The notes below the pieces were generated by a model that did no database searches, was not told where the DNA came from, and saw only the letters and a list, made by a program, of their open reading frames with translations. A stretch of 64,000 nt of DNA, from the NCBI GenBank assembly GCA_002347565.1, contig DDXR01000076.1, forward strand, positions 42,006-106,005, given 5' to 3'. Within the stretch, counting starts at the first letter, position 1. Every line of letters begins with the position of its first letter. The DNA comes from a bacterium UBP2_UBA2255 (GTDB lineage: Bacteria > Edwardsbacteria > AC1 > EtOH8). A program made the translations under genes and the position numbers. This document shows positions 2,843-57,793 of this stretch, one piece after another.

Positions 2843-2849
2843 TCATAAA

Positions 2850-5165: not shown

Positions 5166-6019
5166 AGGAACCGAAGGGACATAGCTACTCGTTCGAACAG
5201 CTGCAGGCCTTCGCCGACGGCGCGCTGGACGACGCCCTGGCGCGGGATATCGGGCGTCATCTGGCCGGCTGCGGCGAGTGCCGCGCGGCGGTGGACCGCC
5301 TGCGGGCGCTGGACGCCCGGATCGGCCAGGCGGAGTCGGCCGATGCGCCGGCCGGATACTTCGAGACATTCGGATCGCGCGTGGCCGGGCGGATCGCCGC
5401 GCGCCGGGCGGCAAAGGAGCGCCCGCTCTTCCGCTTCCCGCTCTGGGGGCTGATCCCGGCCGCCGCGGCCGCCGGACTGGTACTGGTCATCGCCCTGCGG
5501 ACGGAAACGCCGGTGCCCGAACTCACGGTCCGGCTTCCGCCGGCGACCCGCTTCGCTCGGACCGAAAGTGCACCCGCGACCGGCCTGGCCGGGTCGCCCG
5601 TAGCCGCTGCCGGCAAGATGTTGCCGGCCGTCGGACAGAAGGAGGCCCGCCATCACGATCCAGCGGCGGCGGATGCGCGCGAAGCTGACGCCGTACGAAC
5701 CGAACCGGCGTCGGACAGCCGGGCGAAACTGGCCGCCCCCGAGCCGCCGCTGACCGGCCCCTCGCCCGCCGCACCTACGGCCCTGCAGGCCCGCAGTGAA
5801 GCCGTCTCGCCTCCGGCGGCCGGCCCGGCCCGGGGAACGCCGCGCCGAGACTCCCGCATGGCCATTGCTGCCAGGACCGCCATCAAGGCCCGACTGCGCG
5901 CCCCTGCCGAGCCAGCCACCGCGCGCGCAATCGTGATCCACCTGCCCGATGGCGGCGCCTATTGCCCGGCGCCGGAGGTCGCCGCGGCCATCGCGATCGA
6001 GCTCCCGACAGACGATTGA
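5162..6019 (+). CDS. anti-sigma factor (zinc-finger HxxxCxxC type, single-pass membrane)
   Basis: ATGA overlap with the sigma gene. N-terminal HLAGCGECRAAVDRL motif. One TM segment LWGLIPAAAAAGLVLVIAL. Ala/Pro-rich periplasmic tail. Confidence 0.75.
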   Translation: MKEPKGHSYSFEQLQAFADGALDDALARDIGRHLAGCGECRAAVDRLRALDARIGQAESADAPAGYFETFGSRVAGRIAARRAAKERPLFRFPLWGLIPAAAAAGLVLVIALRTETPVPELTVRLPPATRFARTESAPATGLAGSPVAAAGKMLPAVGQKEARHHDPAAADAREADAVRTEPASDSRAKLAAPEPPLTGPSPAAPTALQARSEAVSPPAAGPARGTPRRDSRMAIAARTAIKARLRAPAEPATARAIVIHLPDGGAYCPAPEVAAAIAIELPTDD

Positions 6020-6056
6020 ACGGGCCGCGGCCATGCGGGGGCTGATGGATTTTCGC

Positions 6057-6086
6057 TTGACTTTTCGGGGCCAATTCCCGTATAGT
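6057..6086 (+). promoter_or_regulatory. candidate sigma-70 promoter (TTGACT-N18-TATAGT) for the response-regulator gene
   Basis: Hexamers ~10 nt upstream of the 6097 start. Shares the CGCTTGACTTTT extended -35 seen at four other intergenic sites. Confidence 0.4.
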
Positions 6087-6096
6087 TACATCTTAT

Positions 6097-6735
6097 ATGG
6101 CAGATTACAAGATACTGATCGCCGATGACGAGGCCAACATCGTCAAGATCCTGGAGTTCGAACTGAAGAAGAACAGCTACCAGGTCCTGACGGCGTTCGA
6201 CGGCGAGGAGGCCCTGTGGGTGGCCGAGCGCGACCACCCCGACCTCATCATTTCCGACATCATGATGCCCAAGATGGACGGCTACGAGCTGTGCCGCCGC
6301 GTCAAGGCCAATCCCGACCTGCGGGCGGTGCCGTTCCTGTTCCTGACCGCCAAGACCGGCATCGAAAACCGGATCCAGGGCTACGCCATCGGTGGCGAGA
6401 AGTACATCACCAAGCCCTGCAACCGCCAGGAACTGCTCAAGATCATCGACATGCGGTTGAAGCACGCGGACAAGGCAAAGAAGCTGTTCGCCGAAAAGGC
6501 CCGGAAGTTCCAGGGCGACCTGGCCATCATCTCGATCTTCTCGCTGCTGGACATGTTCTTCATGGGCGGCTGGTCCGGCTATATCGACCTCGCCTCCGGC
6601 GACGGCCAGACCGGACGGATCGAGCTGGAGAACGCCACGATCGGGATCTGCACGCTCAACGGCCAGTCGGAATCTGACACGCTCGCCAAGCTGCTGGCGT
6701 GGAACCAGGGGACGTTCCTGGCCGAGCACGAGTGA
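6097..6735 (+). CDS. response regulator receiver protein with C-terminal DUF4388 domain
   Basis: CheY-like receiver (ILIADDE...DLIISDIMMPKMDG...FLFLTAK) followed by DLAIISIFSLLDMFFMGGWSGYIDL, characteristic of DUF4388. Confidence 0.8.
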   Translation: MADYKILIADDEANIVKILEFELKKNSYQVLTAFDGEEALWVAERDHPDLIISDIMMPKMDGYELCRRVKANPDLRAVPFLFLTAKTGIENRIQGYAIGGEKYITKPCNRQELLKIIDMRLKHADKAKKLFAEKARKFQGDLAIISIFSLLDMFFMGGWSGYIDLASGDGQTGRIELENATIGICTLNGQSESDTLAKLLAWNQGTFLAEHE

Positions 6736-27834: not shown

Positions 27835-28905
27835 TCACTGCACGACGATGCCCGAGGCGATGCCATACGTCGATGTGCTGTCGATCACCAGGTCGTGGCG
27901 CACCCCGCTGACCCAATAGCACGGGATGTACTCTGATCCGACGCTGGTGTAACCGGTAAAATAGACCGTCCCCGAATAGGCGCAGACCGCCATCACGCTG
28001 TTATCGGTGCCGGTGCTGCAGGGCAGGTCGTGTCGCGTCGTTCCTTCCCAGTAGCAGGCCGTGCCGGTGACGCCATCGGAGACATAGCCGCCAGCGTAAA
28101 CCGTGCCGCCGGAAACGCAAATGCCGTATACTTCCCCGTCGTTGGTGCCGTTGGTTGGCAAGCTGCAAAGCACCGTATCCTGCCAATAGCACGGGGCGAT
28201 CTGCCCGCCCGATGGGCGGTAATTTCCGCCGCAATAGACCACGCCGTTGCTCACGGCAACCGCATAGGCATAGGCGTTATTGACCGTGCTCCGGCTCAGG
28301 ATGTGCCTGACCGTGTCTACCCAATAGCATGGCTCCGCATAGCTGACTGATGAATATCCGGCACAGTAGGGAACACCATTGTATGTGGTCACGGCCGTGA
28401 CCATGGCGTTGGCCGCCGAATCGACCTGCAGCCGGCGCCGCAGCGCTCCGTCCCAGCGGGTGGGCAGGCGGATGGCTCCGCTGTCGACGTACCCGGCGCA
28501 ATAGACCGCGCCGCCGGCCACGGCGATGCCATAGACCGTTGGGTTGGTCCCAAGGGCCGGCAGATCTGTGCGCACCGTGTCCCGCCAGAAACAGGGGATC
28601 CGTTTCGACCCGTCGTTGTACCAGCCGCCGCAATATGCGGCACCATTGGATACCGCCATGCCGTTCGCAACTGCAGGATGCAATACGTCCCCGCGCAGGT
28701 CAACGCGAACGCCGTTCTTCCAATAACATGGCACGTTGCGGCCGGCTATCTGATGGTACCCGCTGACATAGACCGTCGGCCCGGTCGGCGTCACTACTGG
28801 CGCGGTGGGATTGGATTTCTTGCCGCAGGCGGACAACAGCGCCAGCAGCACGATGGCCGGCGCGAGACCGGCCACGACCAGGCGTTTCATGTGGTGCTCC
28901 TTCAC
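27835..28905 (-). CDS. paralogous PCYW-repeat lipoprotein
   Basis: Lipobox LLSACG. Same repeat family (PCYWKNGVRVDL, PCFWRDTVRTDLP, PCYWQDTV...). Ends GIVVQ, like its neighbour (GILVQ). Confidence 0.7.
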   Translation of the reverse strand: MKEHHMKRLVVAGLAPAIVLLALLSACGKKSNPTAPVVTPTGPTVYVSGYHQIAGRNVPCYWKNGVRVDLRGDVLHPAVANGMAVSNGAAYCGGWYNDGSKRIPCFWRDTVRTDLPALGTNPTVYGIAVAGGAVYCAGYVDSGAIRLPTRWDGALRRRLQVDSAANAMVTAVTTYNGVPYCAGYSSVSYAEPCYWVDTVRHILSRSTVNNAYAYAVAVSNGVVYCGGNYRPSGGQIAPCYWQDTVLCSLPTNGTNDGEVYGICVSGGTVYAGGYVSDGVTGTACYWEGTTRHDLPCSTGTDNSVMAVCAYSGTVYFTGYTSVGSEYIPCYWVSGVRHDLVIDSTSTYGIASGIVVQ

Positions 28906-28941
28906 GTGGAGTTTTCTCGCAGGAACCGGTCCGATACGGGC

Positions 28942-29328
28942 TCAGTTCTTGTTGATGTAGTCCACCACCGCCTGGCTGGAGGTGCCGGGCGTGAAGATCT
29001 CCCTGATGCCCGCCGCTTTCAGGCCCGGGATGTCGTCGGCCGGGATCACGCCGCCGCCGAACACCTTGATGTCGGCCGCGCCCTTCTCCTTCAGCAGGTC
29101 GACCACCCTGGGGAACAGCGAGTTGTGGGCGCCCGACAGGCAGGACAGCCCCACCCACTGCACGTCCTCCTGCACCGCGGCGGCGGCGATGGCCTCGGGC
29201 GTCTGGCGCAGGCCGGTGTAGATCACCTCGAACCCGGCGTCGCGCAGGGCCCGGGCGATGTACTTGGCCCCGCGGTCGTGCCCGTCCAGGCCGGGCTTGG
29301 CGATCAGGATGCGGGTCTTGCTGCTCAT
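28942..29328 (-). CDS. methylmalonyl-CoA mutase B12-binding (small) subunit
   Basis: Start at [28 protein letters not shown] (DxHxxG cobalamin-binding motif) with a GGAGA RBS. Confidence 0.9.
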
Positions 29329-29365
29329 GTGGCGTCTCCGTATGTCGTGCATGGTGATTGGCCGC

Positions 29366-30001
29366 TCAGTACTTGGCCAGCGCCTGCAGCCAGCTGTGGA
29401 CGTCCTCCGCCCGGTCGGACCCGCCCCATTCCTTCCAGTAGGCGCGGACCTCGCCCTCGTCGGCCTCGAACTCCAGCTGCTCGTTGCGGGCCTGGGCCGC
29501 GATGCCCCGCAGGATAGCCTTCATGGCCTCGGCCGCCTCGCCGCCGCCGGTGCGCAGCCGCCAGCCGTGGCCCAGATCGGCGCCCTCGACCCCCTCCAGC
29601 CGGGCCAGCATCCAGGACCGGGGTGAACCGCCCGGCCGGCGCGGCAGCGCGTAGCGGGCCACCGCGACCTTCTCCGGCCCGCCGTCCTTGGCCGGCATGA
29701 CGCGCTCGGTGTCGGCGACGGCCACCCCCAGCCGGACGGCGTGCCGCCGGGCCAGCTTCTCGGGCCGGCGGGAACGGCGCTCGTACCACAGGTAGCACAG
29801 GCACAGCCCGCTCATCGACGCCGACAGCGCCAGCGACGCGCCCCAGCGCTCCATGCCGACCGCGGCCGCCGACAGGCTGGCGGCCGAGAACAGCGCCGCC
29901 GCCGCCGCCACCCACATCCACTTGCGCCGGGTCTCGACGACGAACTCGAACACCAGCAGGATGGCGAACAGCGTCAGGACGCCCTGGTTGAAATTGTTCA
30001 T
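29366..30001 (-). CDS. hypothetical membrane protein
   Basis: 211 aa. Three N-terminal TM segments. GAGAGGG RBS. Sits between the mutase subunit genes. Confidence 0.5.
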
Positions 30002-30127
30002 GGCGTTGCCCTCTCTGCGGCGGTTATGGAATTATCCGTGTGCAGGATCGAACCCGGCTGCCGGCCGACCGGCAGCAGCAATAGTAAGATCGCGTCGGTC
30101 ATTTAAATACGTTGTGGAATCTAGTGT

Positions 30128-31222
30128 TTAAAAACCTAATGACGTTTGATTGTCTTTTTCCTTATCTTTTACCATATAGATATTGCCATCGTAAGGTGTG
30201 TATTTAAGCATATCGGAAGCTTTTATACAGTAGTCTACACCTAGGTCAATCCCAATAAACCTGCGACCCAATTGCTTCGCTGCAATACATGTGGTACCAA
30301 TACCACAAAAAGGGTCGAGTACGATATCACCATTGAAAGAGCGCACTTTATCCTCTTTGAAAGTATACATGGCTATTAATCTATTAGGTATAGCACGCGG
30401 GAAAGGCGCTGGATGGACTTCTCTTTTAATATCTTCGGAAATAATCGGCCACACTTGTCTCGTAAGGTTCATCCATTGAGATACATCGAGTTTGCTTCTT
30501 TCCTTAATCTGCTTACTAATTATAGATGGCTTCCCGGCCTTGACATAAACGTTGATAAACTCAATGGTATTGCGTTCATACAAGTTTGGCGGATAAGGGT
30601 ACGAGCCAAACATTTTTTCTGTTGTTTGTTTCTGCCAAATGTACAGGCTATATAAAGATAGCTTTGTGTGATCTAGTATTGTACGTTCAATATCATTGTT
30701 TATATTTTTCAAATGCCTTGTATGTTGTTCCGATATCACTTTTTTTGCTATGGGCATTATTGGCGTTTGAATACACAACTTGCCGTTGGGAGTAAGAATA
30801 CGTTCGCATTCACTCCAAATCAATAATAACTCCTTCAAGTATTTATCATAACTAGACTGACCTATTTGGCCCGAGAATCCATAATCAACCATATTCCAAT
30901 ATGGTGGACTAGTGATTATAAGATGAATGGTATCGCTGGGGATTCGTTGCATTACATTATAGCTATTACCACAGATCACTTTGTTGACAATTGCATCAAT
31001 GTTTTTATAAGGCTGCGCAGTATTACGTGCGTCAAGCAAATTGCTATTCGATTCGATCACATTCTTCAGGTTGTCTTCCATCCTTTTCTGATAAATGCGT
31101 GTTGATGGATTCAATTGATCCGCGTGTTTTGAAATGATCTTTTTATCATCAAATAAACTGTCCGCATCGGCCCTTCTCAACCGATTACGTTTCATTTTAT
31201 ATCTAATCTTGTCATCTACCAT
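30128..31222 (-). CDS. Type II DNA methyltransferase, beta-class (SPPY motif IV before FxGxG motif I), probably N4-cytosine or N6-adenine
   Basis: LIITSPPYWNMVDY (motif IV) precedes VLDPFCGIGTTCIAA (motif I). AT-rich gene (~33% GC) in a GC-rich genome. Confidence 0.85.
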   Translation of the reverse strand: MVDDKIRYKMKRNRLRRADADSLFDDKKIISKHADQLNPSTRIYQKRMEDNLKNVIESNSNLLDARNTAQPYKNIDAIVNKVICGNSYNVMQRIPSDTIHLIITSPPYWNMVDYGFSGQIGQSSYDKYLKELLLIWSECERILTPNGKLCIQTPIMPIAKKVISEQHTRHLKNINNDIERTILDHTKLSLYSLYIWQKQTTEKMFGSYPYPPNLYERNTIEFINVYVKAGKPSIISKQIKERSKLDVSQWMNLTRQVWPIISEDIKREVHPAPFPRAIPNRLIAMYTFKEDKVRSFNGDIVLDPFCGIGTTCIAAKQLGRRFIGIDLGVDYCIKASDMLKYTPYDGNIYMVKDKEKDNQTSLGF

Positions 31223-31224
31223 AC

Positions 31225-32697
31225 CTATACATCCTTTCCGCGCACATCAACTACACGGAACTTAATGAATGATTTGCTATTTTCTTTCAATAATCCGATC
31301 CGAGCGTGTTTGATTTTATCCGAAAACGACTCGGCAAGAATAACACCTCTTGTTTTACCTGAACCATCCAGGTTTTGATGTACCCAGCCAATATATCTAA
31401 GCATCTGTCCAATGACCTTGTCCTCAGCGTTACCTCTTTTTATTTCAACTACGACATAGTGACCTGTGCCATCTTTACAAAGCATATCAATACGTCCAAT
31501 CAATGTTGAATACTGCCTACCATTCTCCACCATCGTCAGACCTGATTCAATCAAAGACGGTTTTCGACTATAAATATCTTCGATTTCTTTCTCATAAATC
31601 AGATCTTCAATTTCCTTCTGCTCTTCCTTAGATAATGTTTTAAGTAATTCGACGCTATCCTTAGATATCTTTTTAGCTTCGCTCGGCACTGCTGTTTCTA
31701 TCTGATACTTAAACAACTCAAATGATGTTGGACGACGCGAATAATCGCCATAGAAATTGAACCAATCATTGATTGACTTGAAAACGAATGGTGTGTACTT
31801 GTCAATATACTTACCACCTATCTTATCTAGTAAATCTTTTCTAGGTGTTTGATACTTACCATCATTGTTTGTTATTAAATCCCCAAAAAGAAATAGTATA
31901 AAACTTTTCTGATATGAATAGTTTTGATAGATTGTTTTATACTTTGGCACTGCAGAAACACTATATCCGAAAATGTCTTCAGCTTTAATAGATGGTATTT
32001 TTTCGACACACTTGATTAAAGTGCTTTTTTCCTTATCCGATAGTTTTCTCCAGATTTTAATTCTCTTTAATACATTACCTATATCTGTTTTATTACTAAT
32101 GATGTTAATGAACAATCTGAATTCATCATCTGTTACCATATAGCCTGCATTCGTGAATACTGTAAGAAAACTCACAAACGGGTTGATATACTCGCGTCCC
32201 TTTAGATTGTAAAACTGATATTTACTTATTTGTCGAGAGATGACCTCTCTTAATGATGTTTCACTCTTGCATTTAATAAATTCGTACCCCGCATCTGTAA
32301 TATAGACATACTCGTCCTGTATATACACAAAACCCAGCAACTCAAATATGATGATATTAATTCTCATTAATGCAGTATAACTAGCTAAATCTTGTTTTTT
32401 CTTGCCCACATAGGGTGCTATGAGTTTACGATTTTCTAACTCTTCGTAGTATTTATGTTGATTCTTTAAATCCCATTTGTCTTCAAGAGATATTCTCTGT
32501 AATGCTTTCAATCTTTCTTTTAGAATCTGAACATTTTCAATTTTTACAGACATAGCCTTAGGGATATACCAATAATAATCGTTTGCAGTATATTCCTTTA
32601 AAAAATCAATCCAATATAGACGATCTGTAAAATCCTGTGGCAGATCGTACAACTTCTCGATCCGCTTCTTATCATAATGCTTTTGCTTTTTGATCAT
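31225..32697 (-). CDS. putative Type II restriction endonuclease (C-terminal PD-(D/E)xK / NucS-DUF91-like nuclease)
   Basis: 490 aa, AT-rich. C-terminal GRIDMLCKDGTGHYVVVEIKRGNAEDKVIGQMLRYIGW contains a D...ExK nuclease motif. Stop lies 2 nt from the MTase start. Confidence 0.6.
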   Translation of the reverse strand: MIKKQKHYDKKRIEKLYDLPQDFTDRLYWIDFLKEYTANDYYWYIPKAMSVKIENVQILKERLKALQRISLEDKWDLKNQHKYYEELENRKLIAPYVGKKKQDLASYTALMRINIIIFELLGFVYIQDEYVYITDAGYEFIKCKSETSLREVISRQISKYQFYNLKGREYINPFVSFLTVFTNAGYMVTDDEFRLFINIISNKTDIGNVLKRIKIWRKLSDKEKSTLIKCVEKIPSIKAEDIFGYSVSAVPKYKTIYQNYSYQKSFILFLFGDLITNNDGKYQTPRKDLLDKIGGKYIDKYTPFVFKSINDWFNFYGDYSRRPTSFELFKYQIETAVPSEAKKISKDSVELLKTLSKEEQKEIEDLIYEKEIEDIYSRKPSLIESGLTMVENGRQYSTLIGRIDMLCKDGTGHYVVVEIKRGNAEDKVIGQMLRYIGWVHQNLDGSGKTRGVILAESFSDKIKHARIGLLKENSKSFIKFRVVDVRGKDV

Positions 32698-32715
32698 TGC
32701 TATATCCTAATGTTA

Positions 32716-32922
32716 TTAAGTCCCCATGATCTTCGCCCGGAAGATAAAGAACACCGCGCCCAGCAGGCACAGGCCCGCCCACAGGTAGTCGGAACTGGGT
32801 TTCCCCTTGAGGAAGTAGACCGGGAACGGCAGGAACACCGCCAGCGCCGCCACGTACCAGGCGAAGGTCATGAAGACGTTGCTGCAGCCCAGCAGCAGCG
32901 CGGTAAGGTAGTATTGATGCAT
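32716..32922 (-). CDS. DUF486-family (DMT-like) small membrane protein, apparently internally deleted remnant
   Basis: GC-rich 68-aa ORF. The N-terminus LLGCSNVFMTFAWY and C-terminus LAVFLPFPVYFLKGKPSSDYLWAGLCLLGAVFFIF match the two ends of ~110-aa DUF486 proteins, with the middle missing. AT-rich DNA flanks it on both sides. Confidence 0.45.
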   Translation of the reverse strand: MHQYYLTALLLGCSNVFMTFAWYVAALAVFLPFPVYFLKGKPSSDYLWAGLCLLGAVFFIFRAKIMGT

Positions 32923-32982
32923 TTAATACGTATTTACAGATACTACATTACGAGTTATTTCGAAACAGGGGAACAATGATTC

Positions 32983-34503
32983 TTAATATTTCCTTCGACC
33001 TCTTGGCCTGCTTGATACACGGTGTATTTCTCTACCTTTAATATCTCGCATTTCTAACGCTTGTCGGAAAACAGGGTGGACTTCCCATTTTAATCCATCA
33101 TCAATGTTAGTCCTCGCCTTGAAAAGCGTCGGTTTATCAGAAAAGCAAAAATGTTCATAACTAGCTGGTCCATAATCCCTACGACCATAGAAAAAACCAA
33201 TTTCGAATAAAAATGCTGCTACTTGAAGTTTTGTTGGCGTGCCAACAACACCAATGATACGGGGTGATAAATGGTTAAGAATTTTATTATCGATTATCTT
33301 AAATAACGCGTCTGTTGTTAATTCTTCAGGCTCACGACTGAAAGCAGAAATTAATTCTTCTATATCTGGGCATCGCGATTTAAATTCAGCAACTGTATCT
33401 TCAATTCTTCGATCACCGAATTTTGTTAAATCACCAAGAATATCAAGTAACATGATTTTTTCGTGCTTCTGCGTTAATGCACGTGTCGCAGCATATCTAC
33501 ATAATTCTATCATCCAACGTGGCCGGCCCTTGGATAGAGTATTAATAACTACATGCGCTGGTCTTGTGCTACCTGCCCAATCAAGAGGTGAATTGAAAAT
33601 AAAACCAATAAAGTACTTTTGTCGTTCCTCTTCATTCCCGGACAATGGTTTAATTTTAGCAAATTCTCCTTTACGGATTAAATAACCCTCGATACGTTTT
33701 GCCAATAACCGTCTACAATCATCCTCAGTCCATATTATATCACACATATATTGTTCTATCTTAGAAAGCGATTCATACTCCATTTTAATAATTGTCCACA
33801 CATTCGGTCGTACTGCTGCACGCACCCTCAAACCGGGTATTAATAAAGATAATTCAAGGATAGCATCAAAGAAAGAAGATATTCTTACTCTTTGAAGTTT
33901 CGTATTTTCGAAATTCTTATCAATATCATCTACAAAGAGCCAAACCAACGACCCTTCGTCAATACCCCTCTTTACGACACCTTCTAATGATTTAACAACG
34001 TGTTCAACCTTTTTTGTTTCGACACTTGCTGGGCCGACTTTTATTGTGGTTTTTAAACGATCAGTAATTGCACTAACAATATTTTTTCTTTTAAAACCAT
34101 TCCTTTCAGCTTCTTCAACAAGTGAAATAGCATCATCCGACCATGCTATCCCAATTTTAGAGCCAATTTCATTTGCTAATCGTTCAATAATGGCCTTTTT
34201 CCATTCACGGGTAAATGTAGCATAATCTTCTGTTTGCAGGGTAGGTGCTAATTCGCTACCTGCACATGATAGAACAACATCGTTTGCAGATAGTTCTGGA
34301 CTGATTTTCATTTTACATATTCTTAGCAGCGCGCTCTTCCCGTCGCCTTTATAGGCACGTGTAATAGCTATCTTCCTGTTTTTATCTTTAAAAATATTAC
34401 TCTCTGGTTTCTCAACGATATATTTAGTAAAAATTTCTTCTGGTTCATGTTCAGCAGCATCATTCCCAAATAGATCTTCGTCATTTAAATTGATACGTAT
34501 CAT
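32983..34503 (-). CDS. orphan P-loop NTPase (KAP-like Walker B), candidate defense protein
   Basis: 506 aa, AT-rich. Walker A-like AITRAYKGDGKSALL. Walker B LVWLFVDDIDKNF, close to the KAP-family hhhhDDLDR pattern. No recognised partner domains. Sits next to the R-M pair inside an AT-rich island. Confidence 0.65.
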   Translation of the reverse strand: MIRINLNDEDLFGNDAAEHEPEEIFTKYIVEKPESNIFKDKNRKIAITRAYKGDGKSALLRICKMKISPELSANDVVLSCAGSELAPTLQTEDYATFTREWKKAIIERLANEIGSKIGIAWSDDAISLVEEAERNGFKRKNIVSAITDRLKTTIKVGPASVETKKVEHVVKSLEGVVKRGIDEGSLVWLFVDDIDKNFENTKLQRVRISSFFDAILELSLLIPGLRVRAAVRPNVWTIIKMEYESLSKIEQYMCDIIWTEDDCRRLLAKRIEGYLIRKGEFAKIKPLSGNEEERQKYFIGFIFNSPLDWAGSTRPAHVVINTLSKGRPRWMIELCRYAATRALTQKHEKIMLLDILGDLTKFGDRRIEDTVAEFKSRCPDIEELISAFSREPEELTTDALFKIIDNKILNHLSPRIIGVVGTPTKLQVAAFLFEIGFFYGRRDYGPASYEHFCFSDKPTLFKARTNIDDGLKWEVHPVFRQALEMRDIKGREIHRVSSRPRGRRKY

Positions 34504-34594
34504 TGTTCATTCCTCAATAAAAAAACCACTGCTTAGTGTAATGTACCTGCCCTTTCTTGTAAGCGAAAGGGCAGGGTACGTGATTTAAACCGTT

Positions 34595-36367
<1,773 letters not shown>

Positions 36368-36541
36368 GGCGCACCTATATTATTGTGTTCATCTCCAATG
36401 GGTTGAAAATTTATTATATCACTCCCATTACCCGGTTTCAAGAAAAAAGAAAAGTAATCCGCACCCCGGCTGGGCGGCCCGGAGCGCCGGGCCCCGGAGA
36501 TCGGGCCGAGGCAGGCGCACGGCGGCAAACCCGTTTATCGC

Positions 36542-36569
36542 TTGACAATCGCCGTCTTTTGCGTATATT
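36542..36569 (+). promoter_or_regulatory. candidate sigma-70 promoter (TTGACA-N16-TATATT)
   Basis: Sits in the 470-nt intergenic region between the divergent mutase operon and the V4R-like gene. Confidence 0.35.
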
Positions 36570-36855
36570 TACCATCGGCAGCAATACCGCCTGTCGGACA
36601 CGCGCGCCGCTTGACGGAAAGTCACGCCAGTCCATGAAAGCTGCGCTCTGCGGAAGGCCGGCGCATTGCATTGCGGCGCGGATTCCGCAGTCGATGCGCC
36701 ACAAGTCGAAAGGAGACAGCCCTGGCCCAATTCATCGCCTTCGCCCCCCGGGGTCGAGGTCAACGGGCAGACCGTGCTGTCGGTCGTCGATGGCAGCACC
36801 ATCAAGAAGTCGGCCCTGAAGTACCTTTCGAAAAGCGGGATCGCCGACCCGGCGC

Positions 36856-37087
36856 CATGACCGAGGGGATCGGCCACTACGGGCACCAGCGGATCGACGA
36901 CCGCAGCGCGCGGATGGTCTGCAACAACCCCTACCCCTGCGATTTCGACCGGGGCATCATCGAGTCGGCGGCCAACAAGTTCAAGCCGGCGGGTTTCCGG
37001 GTGTCGGTGGTCCATGACGAGCCGAGCCGGTGCCGGATGACCGGCGCCGATGCCTGCGCCTATACCGTCAGCTGGCGGCCGGAATAG
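36856..37087 (+). CDS. V4R-domain-like small protein (possibly the 3' part of a frameshifted gene)
   Basis: The pattern C..PYPCDFDRGIIESAANKF...GF.V.VV.DEPSRC..TGADACAY fits the V4R Cys/Gly pattern. Strong GC3 bias. A coding-like stretch in a different frame (36740-36860) ends with ATGA overlapping this start. Confidence 0.4.
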
Positions 37088-37208
37088 GTGCCATCCGGCC
37101 CGGGACCGGGACGCGGAACGATTTTTCGTTCCGCGTCTTGACTTTTCCACCGCCGAACGGGTATAGTACGATCGAACCGAGAATCATTCCCACAAGGAAG
37201 GAGCTCCC

Positions 37209-38459
37209 ATGTCGTTCCTACGTCTTCTGTCCAACGGGATCCTGCTGTGCTGCCTGCTGTCCGCCGCCACCGCCGGTGCCGTCGACGTCAAGGCGCTGGC
37301 CCGCCAGGCCAAGGCCGCCCTGCGGGCCGGCGAAAACACCAACGACCAGGCCGTGCTCAGGGCCAAGCTGGACGAAGCCCGGGCATTGATCGACCAGATC
37401 AAGGCGGCCGACCCCAAATATGCCGAACTTTCCGTGATGGAGAACAAATACCGCTACCTGTCGGGGAACCTCAAGGCTTCCCAGTCCCAGGCAGCGCAGC
37501 AGGCGGCCGACGCCTCCATCGACTGGGCCCGGGTGCGAAAAGTCATCGCCGACTGGGAAGCCCTCATCCGGCTCAAGGACGACCTGGCCGCCAAGACCGG
37601 CGGCTTCTTCCCCAATGGCCAGAACATCGCCTACAGCAGGGAGCAGACGGACCAGGTGCTGGCCATGGCGGCCGACGTGCTGAAGAACGACCAGCCCAAG
37701 ATCCTGGCCTTTCTCAAGGATTTCGAAGCCCAGTACGGCCCACCGGGCGACGCCACCGATCGAAAAATCATCGAACTGACGCCCAAGGACCCCAGGAAGG
37801 GCCTGTACGACGAGGCCAACCGGCGGCCCTCGGACCTGCCCAGCCGCTGCCACCAGGAACTGGTTGACCGGCTGACCTGGGTGAAGGAGAACCCCAGGCT
37901 GGAAGCCAGGAAGATACTGAAAAACGTCAGCGACATGATGGCCAACGTCGACTTCGTCACGGACACCCAGCGCGACAAGCGCTACGCCGAGCAGCAGGCC
38001 GAACTGGAGCGGGCCCTGAAGTTCGCCCCCGGCGACCCGGAGGTGGCCAAAGCCCTGGCCGACCACAAGGCCAACCGCACCAAGTCCCAGGCCGACGTCA
38101 AGAAGGCTTTGGAATCGGCCCGGTACCCGGCCGCCTGCGCCGGATTCTCCGGCCCGGGCACCCCGGCCAACCTGGCGGCCCAGGCCACCGCCTACTTCAA
38201 CGCCAACTATCCGAAGGAGAAGGTGCTGAAAGTCAGCGTGGCCGGCAACTGGTTCGCGGCCAAACATAACATCTTCGGTGAGCCCATCCAGTGGGGCTTG
38301 CCGGTCCACTGCGCCAGCCAGCAGGGAGAACAGGGCGTCTGCCGGGTGTTCAAGTCCACCGTGCTCACCGGCATCGGGCTGAAGGTGGCCAAGGCCCCGC
38401 CCTTCAAGGATCACTGGACCGGAGACTCATATAGGATGCTGATAGCTAATTTGAAATGA
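37209..38459 (+). CDS. secreted hypothetical protein
   Basis: Signal peptide MSFLRLLSNGILLCCLLSAATAGA. 416 aa, GC3-biased. Followed by a strong hairpin terminator. Confidence 0.6.
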   Translation: MSFLRLLSNGILLCCLLSAATAGAVDVKALARQAKAALRAGENTNDQAVLRAKLDEARALIDQIKAADPKYAELSVMENKYRYLSGNLKASQSQAAQQAADASIDWARVRKVIADWEALIRLKDDLAAKTGGFFPNGQNIAYSREQTDQVLAMAADVLKNDQPKILAFLKDFEAQYGPPGDATDRKIIELTPKDPRKGLYDEANRRPSDLPSRCHQELVDRLTWVKENPRLEARKILKNVSDMMANVDFVTDTQRDKRYAEQQAELERALKFAPGDPEVAKALADHKANRTKSQADVKKALESARYPAACAGFSGPGTPANLAAQATAYFNANYPKEKVLKVSVAGNWFAAKHNIFGEPIQWGLPVHCASQQGEQGVCRVFKSTVLTGIGLKVAKAPPFKDHWTGDSYRMLIANLK

Positions 38460-48659: not shown

Positions 48660-48735
48660 CGGGGCGTGGCGCAGTTGGTAGCGCGCTTGCTTTGGGAGCA
48701 AGAAGCCCCCAGTTCGAGTCTGGGCGCCCCGACCA
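48660..48735 (+). tRNA. tRNA-Pro (anticodon TGG)
   Basis: Cloverleaf. Acceptor CGGGGCG/CGCCCCG. Anticodon loop UUUGGGA. T-arm GTTCGAGTC. Encoded CCA. Confidence 0.9.
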
Positions 48736-48812
48736 GCGATGATCGCGCACCGCGGAGACCGCAGCGGGTTGGCCACTTCATCCCCTTGCGCCCCGGTGTT
48801 CCACGGCACCAC

Positions 48813-48889
48813 GCGCCTGTAGCTCAGGTGGATAGAGCATCTGCCTTCTAAGCAGATGGTCACAGGTTCGAGTCCTGTCAGGCGTGCCA
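48813..48889 (+). tRNA. tRNA-Arg (anticodon TCT)
   Basis: Acceptor GCGCCTG/CAGGCGT. Anticodon loop CUUCUAA. GTTCGAGTCCTGT T-arm. Encoded CCA. Confidence 0.9.
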
Positions 48890-52657: not shown

Positions 52658-53010
52658 GGGGGCGACAGGTTTCGACGGCTAAGCAGGGGTTCGGGTGGCA
52701 TGCCGAGAACGCCAGAGGGCTCGTTAAAATGCTGGCAAGCCAAGTAACTGGCTCGTATAATTACGCCCTGGCGGCTTAAGATAGCTGCCATGCCGCTGTA
52801 GGTCTCCGCCCATCGGGCTTATAGACGGCACCGTTTAGATAGGCTGGTCCGGTCCTTGGCCCCAGGGGGCCGGACGAGATTCATGGGGATGCTCCGGGCG
52901 GGACCGTGTTTATGCGGGCCCGGCCGGATAAGACAAAACATAGACTAAGCATGTAGAGGCCTGGGCTGCTCCTTTTCCGGACGCGGGTTCAAATCCCGCC
53001 GCCTCCACCA
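52658..53010 (+). ncRNA. ssrA: tmRNA (SsrA)
   Basis: 5' GGGGGCGACAGGTTTCGACGG. 3' tRNA-like end GGACGCGGGTTCAAATCCCGCCGCCTCCACCA. Internal tag ORF ...GGCTCGTATAATTACGCCCTGGCGGCTTAA encodes ...GSYNYALAA-stop. Confidence 0.85.
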
Positions 53011-55619: not shown

Positions 55620-55941
55620 GCCGGTCCCCCTGCTTGAGGTTGATGGTTCCTTCGCTGATCCTGTGACTACGCAGGTCGCCCCGGATTTGTTCCGAGCCCT
55701 GGGCCATCTTCAGAATCACCCTGGCGCCGTTGAGATTGACGCCCATGTCGCGGATGAGGTAGAGGATGTCCTCAAGCAGCTCGAGATCGGCCTGGGAATA
55801 CATGCGGGAATGTCCCGAGACCCGGGCAGGGCACAGCAGGCCGCGGCGCTCGTAGATGCGCAGGGTCTGCTCGTGCACGCCGGCGATCTTGGCCACCACG
55901 CTGATGGTGTACAGCGGCATCTGCCGGTCAGGCTGGATCAT
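55588..55941 (-). CDS. hspR: MerR-family heat-shock regulator HspR-like
   Basis: YTISVVAKIAGVHEQTLRIYERRGLL is an HspR-type MerR HTH. Located between hsp20 and htrA on the same strand. The start could alternatively be M8. Confidence 0.75.
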   Translation of the reverse strand: MIQPDRQMPLYTISVVAKIAGVHEQTLRIYERRGLLCPARVSGHSRMYSQADLELLEDILYLIRDMGVNLNGARVILKMAQGSEQIRGDLRSHRISEGTINLKQGDRHEEPDQDVLD

Positions 55942-55999
55942 GCCTCAAGGCTCGATAACGAATGAAAGGGAGTTGAACATGGACCGGGGAACTCATAAT

Positions 56000-56163
56000 G
56001 AAACCAGGAAGCCAAGAATGAGTTTTCTTGCATTCATGGCCTCCTTATAAACAAAGAATTTTGGGACCCATCCACAGATGGCACCGATCGACACAGATTC
56101 TTAAAATGAACCAGGAAACAATGAATCCAAAATATCATGCATTCATGGTTTCCTTATAAAGGC
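56000..56163. repeat. tandem duplication of a ~55-nt segment in the hsp20-hspR intergenic region
   Basis: Copy 1 is 56000-56055 and copy 2 is 56107-56163. Both share ATGAA(A)CCAGGAA...GAAT...GCATTCATGG..TCCTTATAAA. On the minus strand each reads TTTATAAGGAGG/AAACC-ATG-AAT-GCA (SD plus mini-ORF). Confidence 0.6.
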
Positions 56164-56180
56164 TTCTATGAGTTCGGCCA

Positions 56181-56636
56181 CTAATTGACCTCGATGGCGA
56201 TCTCGCGCGGCTTGACCTCCTCGGACTTGGGGATGCGGATGGTCAGCACGCCGTTCTCGTAGGCGGCCTTGGTCTTGCCCGACTGGACCTCGGTGGGGAG
56301 CCGGATGATGCGCTGGAACTTGCCGTAGGTGCGCTCGATGCGGTGGTAGGTCTTGTCCTTGGTATCCTCGTCGTGGTGGCGCTCGCCGGAGATCGACAGC
56401 ACGTCGGCGGTGATCTGGATCTTGATGTCCTCCTTGGTCATGCCGGGGATCTCGGCCTTGACCACCAGCTCGTCCTTGGTCTCCTCGATGTCCATCAGCG
56501 GCGCCCACAGACCTTCGACCAATGCACGCCGTCCCGGAACCCGCCCGAAGAAATCGGTGAACACGCGGTTCATATCGTCATGGAAAGCCTGCATCTCGTT
56601 GAACGGGTTCCATTTGACCAGATCATTCGGAGTCAT
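56181..56636 (-). CDS. Hsp20/alpha-crystallin small heat-shock protein
   Basis: The alpha-crystallin domain pattern W.P..DI.ETKDELVVKAEIPG...GVLTIRIPK is unmistakable. Confidence 0.95.
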   Translation of the reverse strand: MTPNDLVKWNPFNEMQAFHDDMNRVFTDFFGRVPGRRALVEGLWAPLMDIEETKDELVVKAEIPGMTKEDIKIQITADVLSISGERHHDEDTKDKTYHRIERTYGKFQRIIRLPTEVQSGKTKAAYENGVLTIRIPKSEEVKPREIAIEVN

Positions 56637-56672
56637 GTCGGTTTTCCTTTCCTGTTATTGTATTCTTGGCTA

Positions 56673-56702
56673 ATTATAATACTTGAGCGTTCTTTTGTCA
56701 AG
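56673..56702 (-). promoter_or_regulatory. hsp20 promoter (TTGACA-N17-TATAAT, minus strand) overlapped by a HAIR-like HspR operator
   Basis: The minus strand reads CTTGACA-AAAGAAC-GCTCAAG, i.e. 7-7-7 spacing matching 11 of 14 arm positions of the HAIR consensus CTTGAGT-N7-ACTCAAG. The -35 TTGACA lies inside the left arm. The -10 TATAAT is 17 nt downstream. An AGGAAAGG RBS precedes the ATG. Confidence 0.5.
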
Positions 56703-56863
56703 TCCTTTGACATTGACAAAATGATTTATTTTGATAAATTCGTAATTCATTATTGTATAATGTATTGAACGCAATTATTACGGGAACCTGGTGACAAGGT
56801 ACAGTCTCTAACGGTATTGAACGGTTAAAACCGCAATAACTAACACGCAAACGGGGGAAGACC

Positions 56864-57793
56864 ATGAAAAAGCTGCTCACTTTGGCGATGCTACTCGCTA
56901 TCGGGTCATGCCTGGCGTTGACCGGCTGCAGCAAAACCACCTCTCCGGCGGCGATCGATGATGATGCCGCCATCAACACGGTGCTCTCCCTCTCCGGCTA
57001 CTCCACATCGGACAATTACGGGGACGACGGCACCGCGGCCGTCTCGTATGCCGCGGCCAAGGATTCCTTCCCGTCCTACATCAAGTGGCGCCGTCGCATC
57101 ACGTCGATCACCCGCAACGTCTCCATCAGCTACGATTCGGCCAACGCCGTGGCCCTGGCCGCCATCACCGTCGACTACTACGGCCGGCTGATCGTCGACA
57201 ACAACAACGATGGCGACCTGGCCGACACGCTGGTCCGGCCGCTGCACGACCGGGGCGTGCGCTACGTCCGGCTGCGCAAGGTGGGCGAACGCTGGCGGGT
57301 CTGGGGCTGCTCACCGCTGGAGATCGCCACGGTCGCGCCGCAGAACGCGGTGTCCATCGACAGCGTGCGGGTGGCCGGAGTGTACGACGGCCAGAACCGC
57401 GAGTGGCTGTTCAACGGCTCGGTCTTCAACCAGATCCGGCTGCGCGAGAACATGCCGCTGCTGGACGAGAACTCCTCGGTGACGCTGACCGTCTGGGGCC
57501 GGCTCCAGGACCCCGCCGACTCGATGTGGGCCTTCCTGCACCGGCGCGTCCCGCAGCTCGGCGGGCTGCTCTACCACCTGCGCGAGCCGCTGGCACGCAC
57601 CAGCGTCTTTGTTTTCACCAAGACCTGGACCATCGCCAGCGACAATATCACGTTCCGGCCGGCGCTGCGCCACGCCTGCGTCGACGCGATCCTGGGATCG
57701 ACGTTGTTCGACACCACGGCCGCGGCCGAATACTCGGCCCGGCTGTGGACCATGCCGTACATCGTCAAGGCGGCAGCCGACACCCTGCCCTGA
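56864..57793 (+). CDS. lipoprotein, hypothetical
   Basis: Lipobox LALTGCS. 309 aa, GC3-biased. Confidence 0.6.
   Translation: MKKLLTLAMLLAIGSCLALTGCSKTTSPAAIDDDAAINTVLSLSGYSTSDNYGDDGTAAVSYAAAKDSFPSYIKWRRRITSITRNVSISYDSANAVALAAITVDYYGRLIVDNNNDGDLADTLVRPLHDRGVRYVRLRKVGERWRVWGCSPLEIATVAPQNAVSIDSVRVAGVYDGQNREWLFNGSVFNQIRLRENMPLLDENSSVTLTVWGRLQDPADSMWAFLHRRVPQLGGLLYHLREPLARTSVFVFTKTWTIASDNITFRPALRHACVDAILGSTLFDTTAAAEYSARLWTMPYIVKAAADTLP

What the first reader, a model, noticed from the sequence alone, without database searches (positions are those of the whole stretch)
30100..34575. AT-rich defense island (R-M pair plus orphan P-loop NTPase) inserted inside the methylmalonyl-CoA mutase operon
GC drops from ~68% to ~33-36% between about 30100 and 34570. 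The interval holds a beta-class methyltransferase, a putative PD-(D/E)xK endonuclease, and a 506-aa P-loop NTPase, all on the minus strand. It sits between the mutase catalytic-subunit gene (34595..36367) and the membrane-protein and B12-binding-subunit genes (28942..30001). These normally form one transcription unit, so a horizontally acquired defense module has split a core metabolic operon. No integrase, transposase or tRNA is present. Only a 7-bp ATTTAAA direct repeat is visible near each edge (30107 and 34563).
Basis: partly seen in the sequence, partly recalled or inferred. Interest (0 to 1): 0.8.

Follow-up and report, generated by a model that had tools for sequence, protein, structure and literature searches.

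The report
Strain-variable defence slot inside mutase operon
Foreign, AT-rich DNA carrying a restriction-modification pair and an uncharacterised ATPase sits between the two subunit genes of a B12-dependent mutase. It is not one island. It is two cassettes on either side of a decayed host gene, at a locus where related strains carry other nuclease genes or nothing, which is an ordinary example of a known kind of defence hotspot.

Summary
The GC drop is real: 30103-34595 is 35-37% GC, against 65% (sd 6.5) in the rest of the window. Island genes have GC3 of 0.26-0.38; host genes have 0.77-0.97. The block is not continuous. Positions 32716-32922 are host DNA (GC3 0.91), a DUF486/DMT_6 gene relic with a 50-codon deletion.

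So there are two cassettes:
- A (30103-32721): a Type II R-M pair, a NucS-like PD-(D/E)XK endonuclease followed by a beta-class SPPY methyltransferase.
- B (32923-34595): a 506-aa Sll1717-family P-loop ATPase with an ORC/Cdc6-like fold and no PADLOC match.

Five independent assemblies reproduce the junctions. A contig from the same species (flanks 99.3-99.8% identical) lacks B and carries an HNH nuclease in place of A. More distant relatives carry GmrSD or a DUF559 nuclease in the same slot. Four others are empty and uniform in GC.

There is no integrase, tRNA or repeat at the borders, and ATTTAAA is not a target duplication. The best reading is a core-flanked defence hotspot whose old alleles are swapped by homologous recombination.

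A defence role for the ATPase is unproven. This is a new member of a known kind, of moderate interest.

The parts
34595..36367 (-). Host gene: methylmalonyl-CoA mutase catalytic (large) subunit, 590 aa. It forms the upstream conserved flank of the variable locus.
   Evidence: Pfam MM_CoA_mutase 1.7e-235. GC3 is 0.95. The flank is 99.84% identical to L003 right up to the stop codon.
36413..36441 (-). Sigma-70-like promoter match (TTGAAA-17-TATAAT with TG) 46 nt upstream of the mutase start. It is a candidate operon promoter, by consensus match only.
   Evidence: 11 of 12 positions match. The total number of matches in the region is no higher than in shuffles, so this is weak evidence.
32923..34595 (-). 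Cassette B: 1.67 kb of AT-rich foreign DNA (37% GC). It replaces the roughly 160-bp GC-rich mutase-DUF486 spacer seen in L003 and other relatives.
   Evidence: It is absent from L003, L106, L095, L091, L090 and L109.
34545..34579 (-). Perfect 13-14-bp hairpin (GTACCCTGCCCTTTC...GAAAGGGCAGGTAC) between the mutase stop and the ATPase start, inside cassette B. It is not followed directly by a T-run.
   Evidence: Sequence read. The scan did not call it a terminator.
32983..34503 (-). 506-aa P-loop ATPase of the Sll1717 family. Walker A is GDGKS (K56) and Walker B is DD (192-193). The fold is an ORC/Cdc6-like AAA+ core with a helical lid and a C-terminal winged-helix-like domain. No effector domain is recognisable.
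   Evidence: NCBIfam NF047389 1.2e-66, 225.7 bits against a cut-off of 75. Invariant columns in 32 homologues. AF2 model pLDDT 83.7. Foldseek top hits are Cdc6/Orc1, RdrA, BrxC, TnsC and NLRs. phrog_22717 3.5e-78. No PADLOC hit.
32716..32922 (-). Relic of the native DUF486/DMT_6 membrane-protein gene. It is a 68-aa ORF that lacks 50 internal codons (two of four TM helices) and has host composition.
   Evidence: Pfam DMT_6 1.1e-11 in two stretches. Alignment with the intact 118-aa genes of L095 and L091. GC3 is 0.91. L003 shares the same deletion, where the relic also carries an in-frame stop and is only 90% identical.
30103..32721 (-). Cassette A: 2.62 kb of AT-rich foreign DNA (35% GC). It occupies exactly the DUF486-TerC spacer.
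   Evidence: L003 carries a different cassette, a 308-aa HNH_2 nuclease, at the same place.
31225..32697 (-). Restriction endonuclease, 490 aa. It has an AlwI-like N-terminal region and a NucS-like PD-(D/E)XK C-terminal domain (D404, E418-x-K420).
   Evidence: Pfam NucS_C 1.4e-15. RE_AlwI 1.2e-4, 21.7 bits, just under the 23.1 cut-off. NCBIfam NucS 1.3e-20. PDB EndoMS 2.6e-5. 45 homologues, many with both domains, one named an AlwI-family REase. Motif positions.
30128..31222 (-). Beta-class N4/N6 DNA methyltransferase, 364 aa. Motif IV (SPPY, residue 105) precedes motif I (FCGIG, residue 305). The gene starts 2 nt after the REase stop.
   Evidence: Pfam N6_N4_Mtase 4.1e-40. PADLOC MTase_II 1.4e-61. 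PDB 2zie 3.5e-33 and N4-cytosine MTase 8s9n 6.7e-14. Motifs. The same REase-then-MTase order is seen in L099 and L101.
29998..30102 (-). 34-aa ORF whose first 13 codons are the 5' relic of the native TerC gene. Both cassette A and the L003 cassette end immediately before its ATG.
   Evidence: 38 of the first 40 nt are identical to the start of the TerC gene in L106. TerC is called by Pfam in L095.
29366..30001 (-). Host gene: 211-aa membrane protein with no Pfam family. It is part of the downstream conserved flank.
   Evidence: One search found no family. Homologues of 49-62% identity sit in the same operon in L089, L090, L091 and L108. The flank is 99.34% identical to L003.
28942..29352 (-). 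Host gene: B12-binding small subunit of the mutase, 136 aa, intact.
   Evidence: Pfam B12-binding 4.5e-26. 87-94% identical to the L090, L095 and L108 orthologues. GC3 is 0.97.

Best explanation
The space between the two mutase subunit genes is a strain-variable hotspot flanked by core genes, not a single inserted island.

Shown:
- In the ancestor the operon read mutase, GC-rich hairpin spacer, DUF486, spacer, TerC or another membrane gene, B12 subunit.
- In this lineage DUF486 lost 50 codons and TerC was cut to 13 codons.
- The two spacers on either side of the DUF486 relic are now filled with unrelated AT-rich cargo, all in the operon's orientation.

Cassette A is a Type II restriction-modification pair. 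By inference from family membership, the beta-class methyltransferase marks the host's own DNA at a specific site. The SPPY motif suggests N4-cytosine, but this was not tested. The endonuclease has an AlwI-like recognition region and a NucS-like PD-(D/E)XK cleavage domain, and cuts unmarked incoming DNA.

Cassette B is an independent single gene for an Sll1717-family ORC/Cdc6-like AAA+ ATPase with a winged-helix-like tail. My guess, at about 40-50%, is that it is a nucleic-acid-binding NTPase acting as a stand-alone defence or exclusion factor carried by mobile elements.

Inferred mechanism of turnover: each cargo arrived by rare illegitimate recombination in some lineage. The whole segment from the mutase stop to the TerC relic is then exchanged between strains by homologous recombination in the conserved flanks (allelic substitution). 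Old, divergent alleles are maintained by diversifying selection from phages. Expression probably depends, at least in part, on read-through from the mutase promoter.
For: Foreign origin and real junctions:
- Composition and GC3 set the island apart from the host.
- Independent JGI, Logan and ENA assemblies are 99.9-100% identical across the junctions.

Two cassettes:
- The host-composition DUF486 relic lies between them.

Allelic variation within the species, from L003:
- The mutase protein is identical.
- The flanks are 99.84% identical over 4243 bp and 99.34% over 910 bp.
- There is no ATPase cassette, and a 308-aa HNH_2 nuclease sits in place of the R-M pair.
- The relic is only 90% identical.

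Recurrence in the clade:
- L108 has a 93-aa gene plus GmrSD (PADLOC HEC-06 2.6e-188) at 30-40% GC, after DUF486.
- L109 and L111 have an AT-rich DUF559 nuclease after DUF486.
- L095, L097, L091, L090 and L106 are empty.
- All cargo is co-oriented with the operon.

R-M identity.

ATPase:
- Family, fold and phage-family match.
- It is solitary and sporadic among housekeeping genes.
- A homologue sits in the accessory end of Pf prophage PfAC09. PMC11878078 describes that region as mostly defence morons.

No mobility signatures.

Precedent:
- Allelic substitution at R-M loci (PMC2853133).
- Core defence hotspots without detectable mobile elements, with homologous recombination proposed as the transfer route (PMC10250203, PMC10121019).
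Against: - No experiment or methylome shows that the R-M pair is active.
- The ATPase has no PADLOC match, no effector domain, and no relative in IMG/VR by the pattern scan. A defence role rests on context only.
- Recombination in the flanks is inferred. The flanks are almost identical right up to the junctions, with one SNP in the last 3.5 kb of the left flank. No imported divergent tract is visible, apart from a mild excess of 6 SNPs in 700 bp in the 211-aa gene.
- Two different cassettes share the same right junction to within 1-2 nt, immediately before the TerC-relic ATG. This could instead point to a site-specific mechanism.
- Not every cargo in the clade is defensive. L108 has a 114-aa lipoprotein-like AT-rich gene after the mutase gene.
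- The host is taxonomically unplaced, and only about ten related contigs were examined.
Confidence: 0.75

Rival explanations
1. One reading: one horizontally acquired defence island (R-M plus NTPase) inserted in a single event and split the operon.
For: All three genes are AT-rich, co-oriented and contiguous apart from 200 bp. They occur together in every assembly of this haplotype.
Against: A relic of a native gene with host codon usage lies between them. L003 has the relic with a different cassette on one side and the ancestral spacer on the other. The ATPase and R-M families do not co-occur in other genomes.
Confidence: 0.08
2. A site-specific capture mechanism places promoterless cassettes at fixed points in the operon. 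It could be integron-like or use an unknown recombinase acting on the spacer or hairpin.
For: Two unrelated cassettes end at the same nucleotide position (within 1-2 nt) before the TerC-relic ATG. Their left ends lie within 8 nt of each other. The cargo is nearly ORF-only, with 8-24 nt upstream and 25-34 nt downstream, and is always co-oriented. Conserved GC-rich hairpins mark the empty spacers.
Against: There is no integrase or recombinase in the interval. No flanking repeats or inverted repeats were found. There is no room for an attC site, since only 25 nt separate the MTase stop from the next ATG. The junction sequences of the two cassettes share no motif. The hairpin motif has no other copy in the 64-kb window. 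In L108 and L109 the cargo abuts different downstream genes.
Confidence: 0.1
3. The ATPase is not a defence gene. It would be a selfish or mobile-element maintenance gene, or a DNA-binding regulator, that merely hitch-hikes into variable loci.
For: There is no PADLOC hit and no effector domain. It sits among housekeeping genes in L092, L094 and L104. Its closest folds are replication initiators and transposition ATPases. It is annotated only as a DNA-binding protein in PfAC09.
Against: It has a sporadic, single-copy, horizontally mobile distribution, with hundreds of homologues at 45-54% identity. It appears in a prophage accessory region and on a plasmid next to PLD and kinase genes. It is co-located with an R-M pair in a slot that otherwise holds nucleases. 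Structural neighbours also include the defence ATPases RdrA and BrxC and NLR-type STANDs.
Confidence: 0.4
4. The ATPase is a third component of the R-M system, for example a translocase or regulator, making a three-gene system.
For: Proximity and shared orientation in this haplotype.
Against: It is separated from the R-M pair by the host relic. REase-MTase pairs in L099 and L101 have no such ATPase, and ATPase homologues have no R-M neighbours.
Confidence: 0.04
5. Assembly or binning chimera: AT-rich DNA from another organism was joined to a GC-rich contig.
For: The compositional jump is extreme.
Against: The same junctions appear in five or more independent assemblies from JGI, Logan and ENA. 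The junctions fall at gene boundaries with intact ORFs. The host relic is embedded between the cassettes.
Confidence: 0.01

Closest known systems
Core-gene-flanked defence hotspots without detectable mobile elements: P. aeruginosa cDHS1/cDHS2 (PMC10250203) and E. coli hotspot #37 (PMC10121019)
   Same: The flanks are conserved. Closely related strains carry different defence cargo or none. GC is lower than in the core. There are no identifiable mobility genes. Transfer by homologous recombination in the flanks has been proposed for these hotspots.
   Different: This slot is tiny, 1-4.5 kb and one to three genes, against a median of 26 kb. It is nested inside an operon between the genes for two subunits of one enzyme. 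It is not next to a tRNA or tmRNA. Cargo is strictly co-oriented with the operon. The host is an uncultured, unplaced bacterium.
Allelic substitution at R-M loci: Furuta, Abe and Kobayashi 2010 (PMC2853133); the E. coli hsd immigration control region
   Same: Within one species, an R-M system at a fixed locus is replaced by an unrelated restriction gene, with similarity only in the flanks and no repeats. That study recorded 116 such substitution pairs.
   Different: The substitute here is a solitary HNH nuclease with no methyltransferase. The locus also holds a second, independent cassette. No long target duplication of 30 bp or more was seen.
Type II R-M systems with AlwI-family endonucleases (Pfam PF09491) and beta-class N4/N6 methyltransferases (PF01555)
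   Same: The gene pair has the endonuclease immediately followed by the methyltransferase. The N-terminal region resembles AlwI. NCBI names a 35%-identical relative an AlwI-family REase.
   Different: The cleavage domain matches NucS/EndoMS (PF01939). As I recall, characterised AlwI-family enzymes (AlwI, N.BstNBI) have a different cleavage domain, but I did not verify this here. The AlwI match in this protein is just below Pfam's threshold. The recognition site is unknown.
ORC/Cdc6-STAND-type defence ATPases: BrxC of BREX, RdrA of RADAR, Avs/NLR-like
   Same: An AAA+ core with a helical lid and a winged-helix-like domain. Foldseek E-values are 1e-4 to 1e-6. Homologues give weak nSTAND_NTPase5 and AAA_16 hits.
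   Different: It is a single 506-aa protein with no partner genes, no sensor repeats and no effector domain. It has no sequence-level match to any PADLOC model. Its function has not been tested.

Membership tests
Type II restriction-modification system | DNA methyltransferase with the N6_N4_Mtase catalytic domain above the family threshold | tested here: met
   PF01555 4.1e-40, 138.5 bits against a cut-off of 26.7. PADLOC MTase_II 1.4e-61.
Type II restriction-modification system | Beta-class motif order: motif IV (D/S)PPY lies N-terminal to motif I FxGxG | tested here: met
   SPPY at residue 105 and FCGIG at residue 305.
Type II restriction-modification system | Adjacent endonuclease with a PD-(D/E)XK catalytic core | tested here: met
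   NucS_C 1.4e-15, 57.8 bits against a cut-off of 24. D404...E418-x-K420. EndoMS 5gke 2.6e-5.
Type II restriction-modification system | The R and M genes are conserved as a pair in unrelated genomes | tested here: met
   The REase homologues P0129 (46% identical) and P0137 (35%) are each followed directly by an N6_N4_Mtase gene.
Type II restriction-modification system | Sequence-specific cleavage that is blocked by the cognate methylation | not testable with these tools
   This needs biochemistry or a methylome.
AlwI-family restriction endonuclease (PF09491) | Match to the RE_AlwI profile above the gathering score | tested here: inconclusive
   21.7 bits against a cut-off of 23.1, covering only profile positions 3-120 of 441. 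Many homologues carry PF09491 in precomputed annotation.
Sll1717-family P-loop ATPase (NCBIfam NF047389) | Full-length match above the curated cut-off | tested here: met
   225.7 bits against 75, E 1.2e-66, covering profile positions 1-454 of 454.
Sll1717-family P-loop ATPase (NCBIfam NF047389) | Intact Walker A and Walker B motifs | tested here: met
   G53, G55, K56 and D192, D193 are invariant in 32 homologues.
Known anti-phage defence system (PADLOC-DB 2.0) | The ATPase matches a defence-system protein model | tested here: not met
   No families at E <= 0.01.
ORC/Cdc6-STAND clade AAA+ ATPases | AAA+ core, lid and winged-helix architecture by structure comparison | tested here: met
   AF2 model pLDDT 83.7. 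The top Foldseek hits are 1fnn and 2qby (Cdc6/Orc1) at E 4e-6 to 7e-6 with TM 0.42-0.52 on the target. This is fold-level similarity only.
ORC/Cdc6-STAND clade AAA+ ATPases | Sequence-profile membership (nSTAND_NTPase5 or AAA_16 above threshold) | tested here: not met
   The window protein has no hit. Homologues reach 25.5 bits against a cut-off of 34.
Integrase-mediated genomic island | Integrase or recombinase gene, tRNA/tmRNA target, flanking direct repeats | tested here: not met
   The ORFs in the interval are only the MTase, REase, relic and ATPase. The nearest tRNA is at 48660. There are no boundary repeats. ATTTAAA is not a duplication of the target.
Integron gene cassette | An attC recombination site (imperfect palindrome of about 57-141 nt) 3' of each ORF, with an intI gene nearby | tested here: not met
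   Only 25 nt lie between the MTase stop and the next host ATG, and 60 nt between the ATPase stop and the relic ATG. No palindromes were found there. No integrase was seen in the ORF lists I read (27000-38000, 2700-4300, 55800-57100, 62400-64000). The rest of the window was not screened for one.
R-M insertion with long target duplication (PMC2853133) | Direct repeats of 30 bp or more from the target flanking the R-M unit | tested here: not met
   No such repeats.
Core-flanked defence hotspot / allelic substitution locus | Conserved flanks with different cargo in closely related genomes | tested here: met
   The window and L003 have flanks 99.3-99.8% identical but unrelated cargo.
Core-flanked defence hotspot / allelic substitution locus | Empty sites in related genomes | tested here: met
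   L095, L097, L091, L090 and L106 have uniform GC.
Core-flanked defence hotspot / allelic substitution locus | Cargo enriched for defence functions across the clade | tested here: inconclusive
   Four of four cargo units after DUF486 are nuclease-based: R-M, HNH, GmrSD and DUF559. Only about ten contigs were examined, there is no genome-wide background, and the cargo after the mutase gene (the ATPase and a 114-aa lipoprotein-like gene) is not classified.

The most novel reading that the evidence does not exclude
The spacers around DUF486 inside the mutase operon form a dedicated, integrase-free capture site. It is conserved across an uncultured clade. It takes up near ORF-only nuclease or defence genes in the operon's orientation, so that a housekeeping promoter expresses them. 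Two unrelated cassettes ending at the same nucleotide would then reflect an unknown site-specific mechanism. In addition, the Sll1717-family ORC/Cdc6-like ATPase would be a new single-gene anti-phage system.
Probability: 0.12. Interest if true: 0.6.

Novelty: new member of a known kind. Interest (0 to 1): 0.38.

Why it matters
- It gives a clean natural example, from an uncultured high-GC lineage, of defence-gene turnover at a fixed site flanked by core genes. Both an empty site and an alternative allele are available, which fixes the junctions to the nucleotide.
- Such slots can lie inside an operon for a two-subunit enzyme without visible damage to the flanking genes. The mutase protein is identical between haplotypes and the B12-subunit gene is intact.
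- The slot nominates the widespread but unstudied Sll1717 ATPase family as a candidate defence gene worth testing. The search scored 643 homologues, and there is a matching phage protein family.
- None of this overturns current views. Defence hotspots and allelic R-M substitution are well documented.

Tried and rejected
- ATTTAAA as a target-site duplication: rejected. All copies are inside the AT-rich DNA, at about chance frequency, and are absent from L003's junctions.
- Flanking direct or inverted repeats: none at the borders.
- tRNA, tmRNA or Rfam RNA as an integration target: the nearest is 14 kb away.
- Dispersed REP-like elements as an insertion target: neither the GC-rich hairpin motif of the empty spacers nor a second palindrome seen in L106 and L107 has any copy in the window.
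- Intrinsic terminators or promoters inside the island: counts do not exceed shuffles, so this is uninformative.
A close relative in NCBI is labelled only '[bacterium]'.
- IMG/VR scan for the ATPase family: no confirmed hit.
- Literature search for 'Sll1717': no papers.
- Sequence search of PDB for the ATPase: nothing significant.
- The 211-aa protein as a diverged TerC: rejected. BLASTP gives E 0.065 over 26 residues only.
- Assembly chimera: rejected by five independent assemblies.

Full report
**1. Observation**

The window is GC-rich. 500-bp windows outside the feature average 64.9% GC with sd 6.5. Between about 30100 and 34590, GC falls to 29-42% in 300-bp windows.

Third-position GC is 0.38, 0.34 and 0.26 for the three island genes. 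It is 0.95-0.97 for the mutase gene, the 211-aa gene and the B12-subunit gene.

The drop is not continuous. Positions 32716-32922 return to host composition (61% GC, GC3 0.91).

The ATTTAAA 7-mer lies at 30101-30107 and at 34583-34589, not at 34563. It occurs eight times counting both strands, always inside the AT-rich DNA. That is about what composition alone predicts.

**2. What the genes are**

- ORF 30128-31222 is a beta-class N4/N6 DNA methyltransferase. It matches PF01555 at 4e-40 and PADLOC MTase_II at 1e-61, with SPPY at residue 105 ahead of FCGIG at residue 305. The closest solved structures are 2zie and an N4-cytosine methyltransferase.
- ORF 31225-32697 ends 2 nt before the methyltransferase gene starts. 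It has a NucS/EndoMS-like PD-(D/E)XK domain with D404, E418 and K420 (NucS_C 1.4e-15, NCBIfam NucS 1.3e-20, PDB 5gke 2.6e-5). It also has a sub-threshold AlwI-like N-terminal region.
- This endonuclease has 45 homologues. Many carry both Pfam domains, and NCBI names one an AlwI-family endonuclease.
- In a sponge metagenome contig and a Planctomycetes MAG, homologues are again followed directly by an N6_N4 methyltransferase. This is therefore a conserved two-gene Type II R-M module.
- ORF 32983-34503 is a full-length member of NCBIfam NF047389, 'P-loop ATPase, Sll1717 family' (225.7 bits against a cut-off of 75). Walker A and B residues are invariant in 32 homologues.
- The ATPase matches no PADLOC model and nothing in PDB by sequence. 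It does match an uncharacterised phage protein family, phrog_22717, at 3.5e-78.
- An AlphaFold model built on the 32-sequence alignment has mean pLDDT 83.7. It most resembles Cdc6/Orc1, followed by RdrA, BrxC, TnsC and NLR-type STAND ATPases. The architecture is an AAA+ core, a lid and a winged-helix-like tail, with no recognisable effector domain.
- The 200-bp GC-rich patch encodes a 68-aa remnant of a DUF486/DMT_6 membrane protein. Pfam matches it at 1e-11 in two stretches. Fifty internal codons are missing compared with the intact 118-aa genes of relatives.

**3. The junctions are real**

Exact-protein look-ups recovered the locus from independent JGI, Logan and ENA assemblies. L001 and L002 are 100% identical. 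L006 is 99.94% identical across both outer junctions. L007 and L008 are 100% identical across the mutase, ATPase and relic junctions. An assembly chimera is excluded.

**4. A sister haplotype**

L003 (JGI 3300001580) encodes an identical mutase protein. It is 99.84% identical over 4243 bp up to the mutase stop codon, and 99.34% identical over 910 bp starting at window position 30102. Between these flanks it differs completely:

- After the mutase gene comes a 160-bp GC-rich spacer with a strong hairpin. There is no ATPase.
- Next comes the same DUF486 relic with the same 50-codon deletion. It carries an in-frame stop and is only 90% identical, with 20 mismatches spread over all codon positions.
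- Next comes a different AT-rich cassette encoding a 308-aa HNH_2 nuclease (Pfam 4e-10; PADLOC HNH 4.5e-20).

These points rest.

This comparison fixes the foreign segments in the window as 32923-34595 (cassette B) and 30103-32721 (cassette A). Both cassettes at the A position end immediately before the same ATG (window position 30102).

That ATG begins a 34-aa ORF. Its first 13 codons are the 5' remnant of a TerC gene: 38 of the first 40 nt are identical to the intact gene in L106.

**5. Relatives**

Empty sites with uniform GC:
- L106 (mutase 96% identical): mutase, 56-nt hairpin spacer, intact DUF486, then TerC.
- L095 and L097 (about 90%): mutase, DUF486, TerC, B12 subunit, MeaB.
- L091: mutase, DUF486, a DUF1648-like gene, then the 211-aa homologue.
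- L090: mutase, a DUF486 stub, the 211-aa homologue, a 166-aa gene, the B12 subunit, then lipoproteins.

Occupied sites:
- L108 (about 90%) has a 30-40% GC block after DUF486. It carries a 93-aa gene and a GmrSD-family Type IV enzyme (PADLOC HEC-06 2.6e-188). It also has a lower-GC 114-aa lipoprotein-like gene directly after the mutase gene.
- L109 and L111 (88%) have a 39-43% GC DUF559 endonuclease-like gene after DUF486.

All cargo genes in all four occupied loci point the same way as the operon.

That test fails, so horizontal acquisition stands. The locus, however, is a recurrent slot and not a unique accident.

**6. Mechanism**

Shown:
- There are two separate foreign segments flanking a relic of a native gene.
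- Cargo varies between near-identical genomes.
- There is no integrase, tRNA target or flanking repeat.

Inferred:
- Individual cargoes entered by rare illegitimate events, accompanied by local deletions. The DUF486 and TerC relics are shared by both haplotypes, so those deletions are older than the current cargo difference.
- The whole inter-flank segment is then exchanged among strains by homologous recombination. The argument is that the relic has diverged 10% while the flanks differ by 1% or less. This fits old alleles placed into near-identical genetic backgrounds.
- This is the 'substitution' class described for R-M loci (PMC2853133). It is also the behaviour proposed for core defence hotspots that lack mobile-element scars (PMC10250203; see also hotspot #37 in PMC10121019).

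Caveat: the identical right junction of two unrelated cassettes leaves a small chance of a site-specific process.

Function:
- For the R-M pair, function follows from family membership: self-methylation plus cleavage of unmethylated incoming DNA. The SPPY motif suggests N4-cytosine methylation, from general knowledge of beta-class enzymes. This was not tested.
- For the ATPase I commit, at 40-50%, to a stand-alone nucleic-acid-binding NTPase with a defence or exclusion role.
- The supporting context for the ATPase is as follows. It occurs singly and sporadically among housekeeping genes. A homologue lies on a Nostoc plasmid beside PLD and kinase genes. Another lies in the accessory end of Pf prophage PfAC09, a region described as mostly defence morons (PMC11878078).
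- The ATPase is not part of the R-M system. The two families do not co-occur elsewhere.

**7. Effect on the operon**

The catalytic and B12-binding subunit genes are 5.2 kb apart here, measured from the mutase stop to the B12 start. In relatives with an empty site they are about 1.2-1.6 kb apart.

Both genes are intact. The mutase protein is identical in haplotypes with and without cassette B. No terminator was predicted within the island on the operon strand, other than one weak call inside the relic. Promoter-like matches do not exceed chance. Whether transcription reads through the island cannot be decided from sequence.

**8. Verdict**

- This is a new member of a known kind: a small defence hotspot or allelic R-M substitution locus flanked by core genes.
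- Two mildly unusual traits are its nesting inside a two-subunit enzyme operon and its strictly co-oriented, near ORF-only cargo.
- The untested Sll1717 ATPase is the most useful lead.
- Interest is about 0.38.

Noticed in passing
window 29998-30102 (-): A 34-aa ORF whose first 13 codons are the 5' relic of a TerC-family gene that is intact in relatives L106 and L095. Together with the DUF486 relic, this shows that both native membrane genes flanking cassette A have decayed in this lineage.
   Followed up: yes
L003 4247-4406; L106 3165-3220; L109 9768-9820; L095, L091, L090 equivalents: A conserved GC-rich hairpin (CCCCTCCCC-N5-GGGGAGGGG, then (C/T)AGGGGAGAGGTCAAA) lies between the mutase stop and the DUF486 start in relatives. 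In the window it is absent and cassette B takes its place. The motif has no other copy in the 64-kb window. Its role (RNA stabiliser, attenuator or recombination target) is unknown.
   Followed up: partly
window 2850-4199 (+): A 449-aa secreted protein has a CarboxypepD_reg domain and a weak serpin-like C-terminus. Its gene body is 42-45% GC in a 65% GC background, while the first 60 or so codons are near host GC. It may be another foreign or mosaic gene.
   Followed up: partly
window 62700-64000: A 44-45% GC block runs to the window end. It carries small lipoprotein genes (a 158-aa PEGA-domain protein at 62911-63387 and a 124-aa protein at 63463-63837, both on the minus strand). It directly abuts a GC-rich gene at 61168-62724 that looks like a carboxyltransferase from reading the sequence; I did not run a family search on it.
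   Followed up: no
window 26740-28905 (-); L090 2323-5642: Tandem paralogous lipoprotein genes of about 356-361 aa, with repeated '(P)CYW...GTxR.DLP' units, lie immediately downstream of the B12-subunit gene. L090 has three copies. Other relatives have MeaB there instead.
   Followed up: no
L108 9825-10169: In the 90%-mutase relative, a 114-aa lipoprotein-like gene at 39-44% GC sits directly after the mutase stop. This is the same position as cassette B in the window, so that spacer also accepts cargo that is not defensive.
   Followed up: partly
L103 (Pseudomonas phage PfAC09, OR818369.1) 4977-6479: A 37%-identical Sll1717-family ATPase, annotated 'DNA-binding protein', occupies the accessory end of a filamentous Pf prophage next to the excisionase.
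   Followed up: partly
window 52658-53010, 48660-48889: A tmRNA gene (tag GSYNYALAA) and a tRNA-Pro/tRNA-Arg pair. These are classical island targets, but there is no AT-rich DNA adjacent to them at 1-kb resolution.
   Followed up: no
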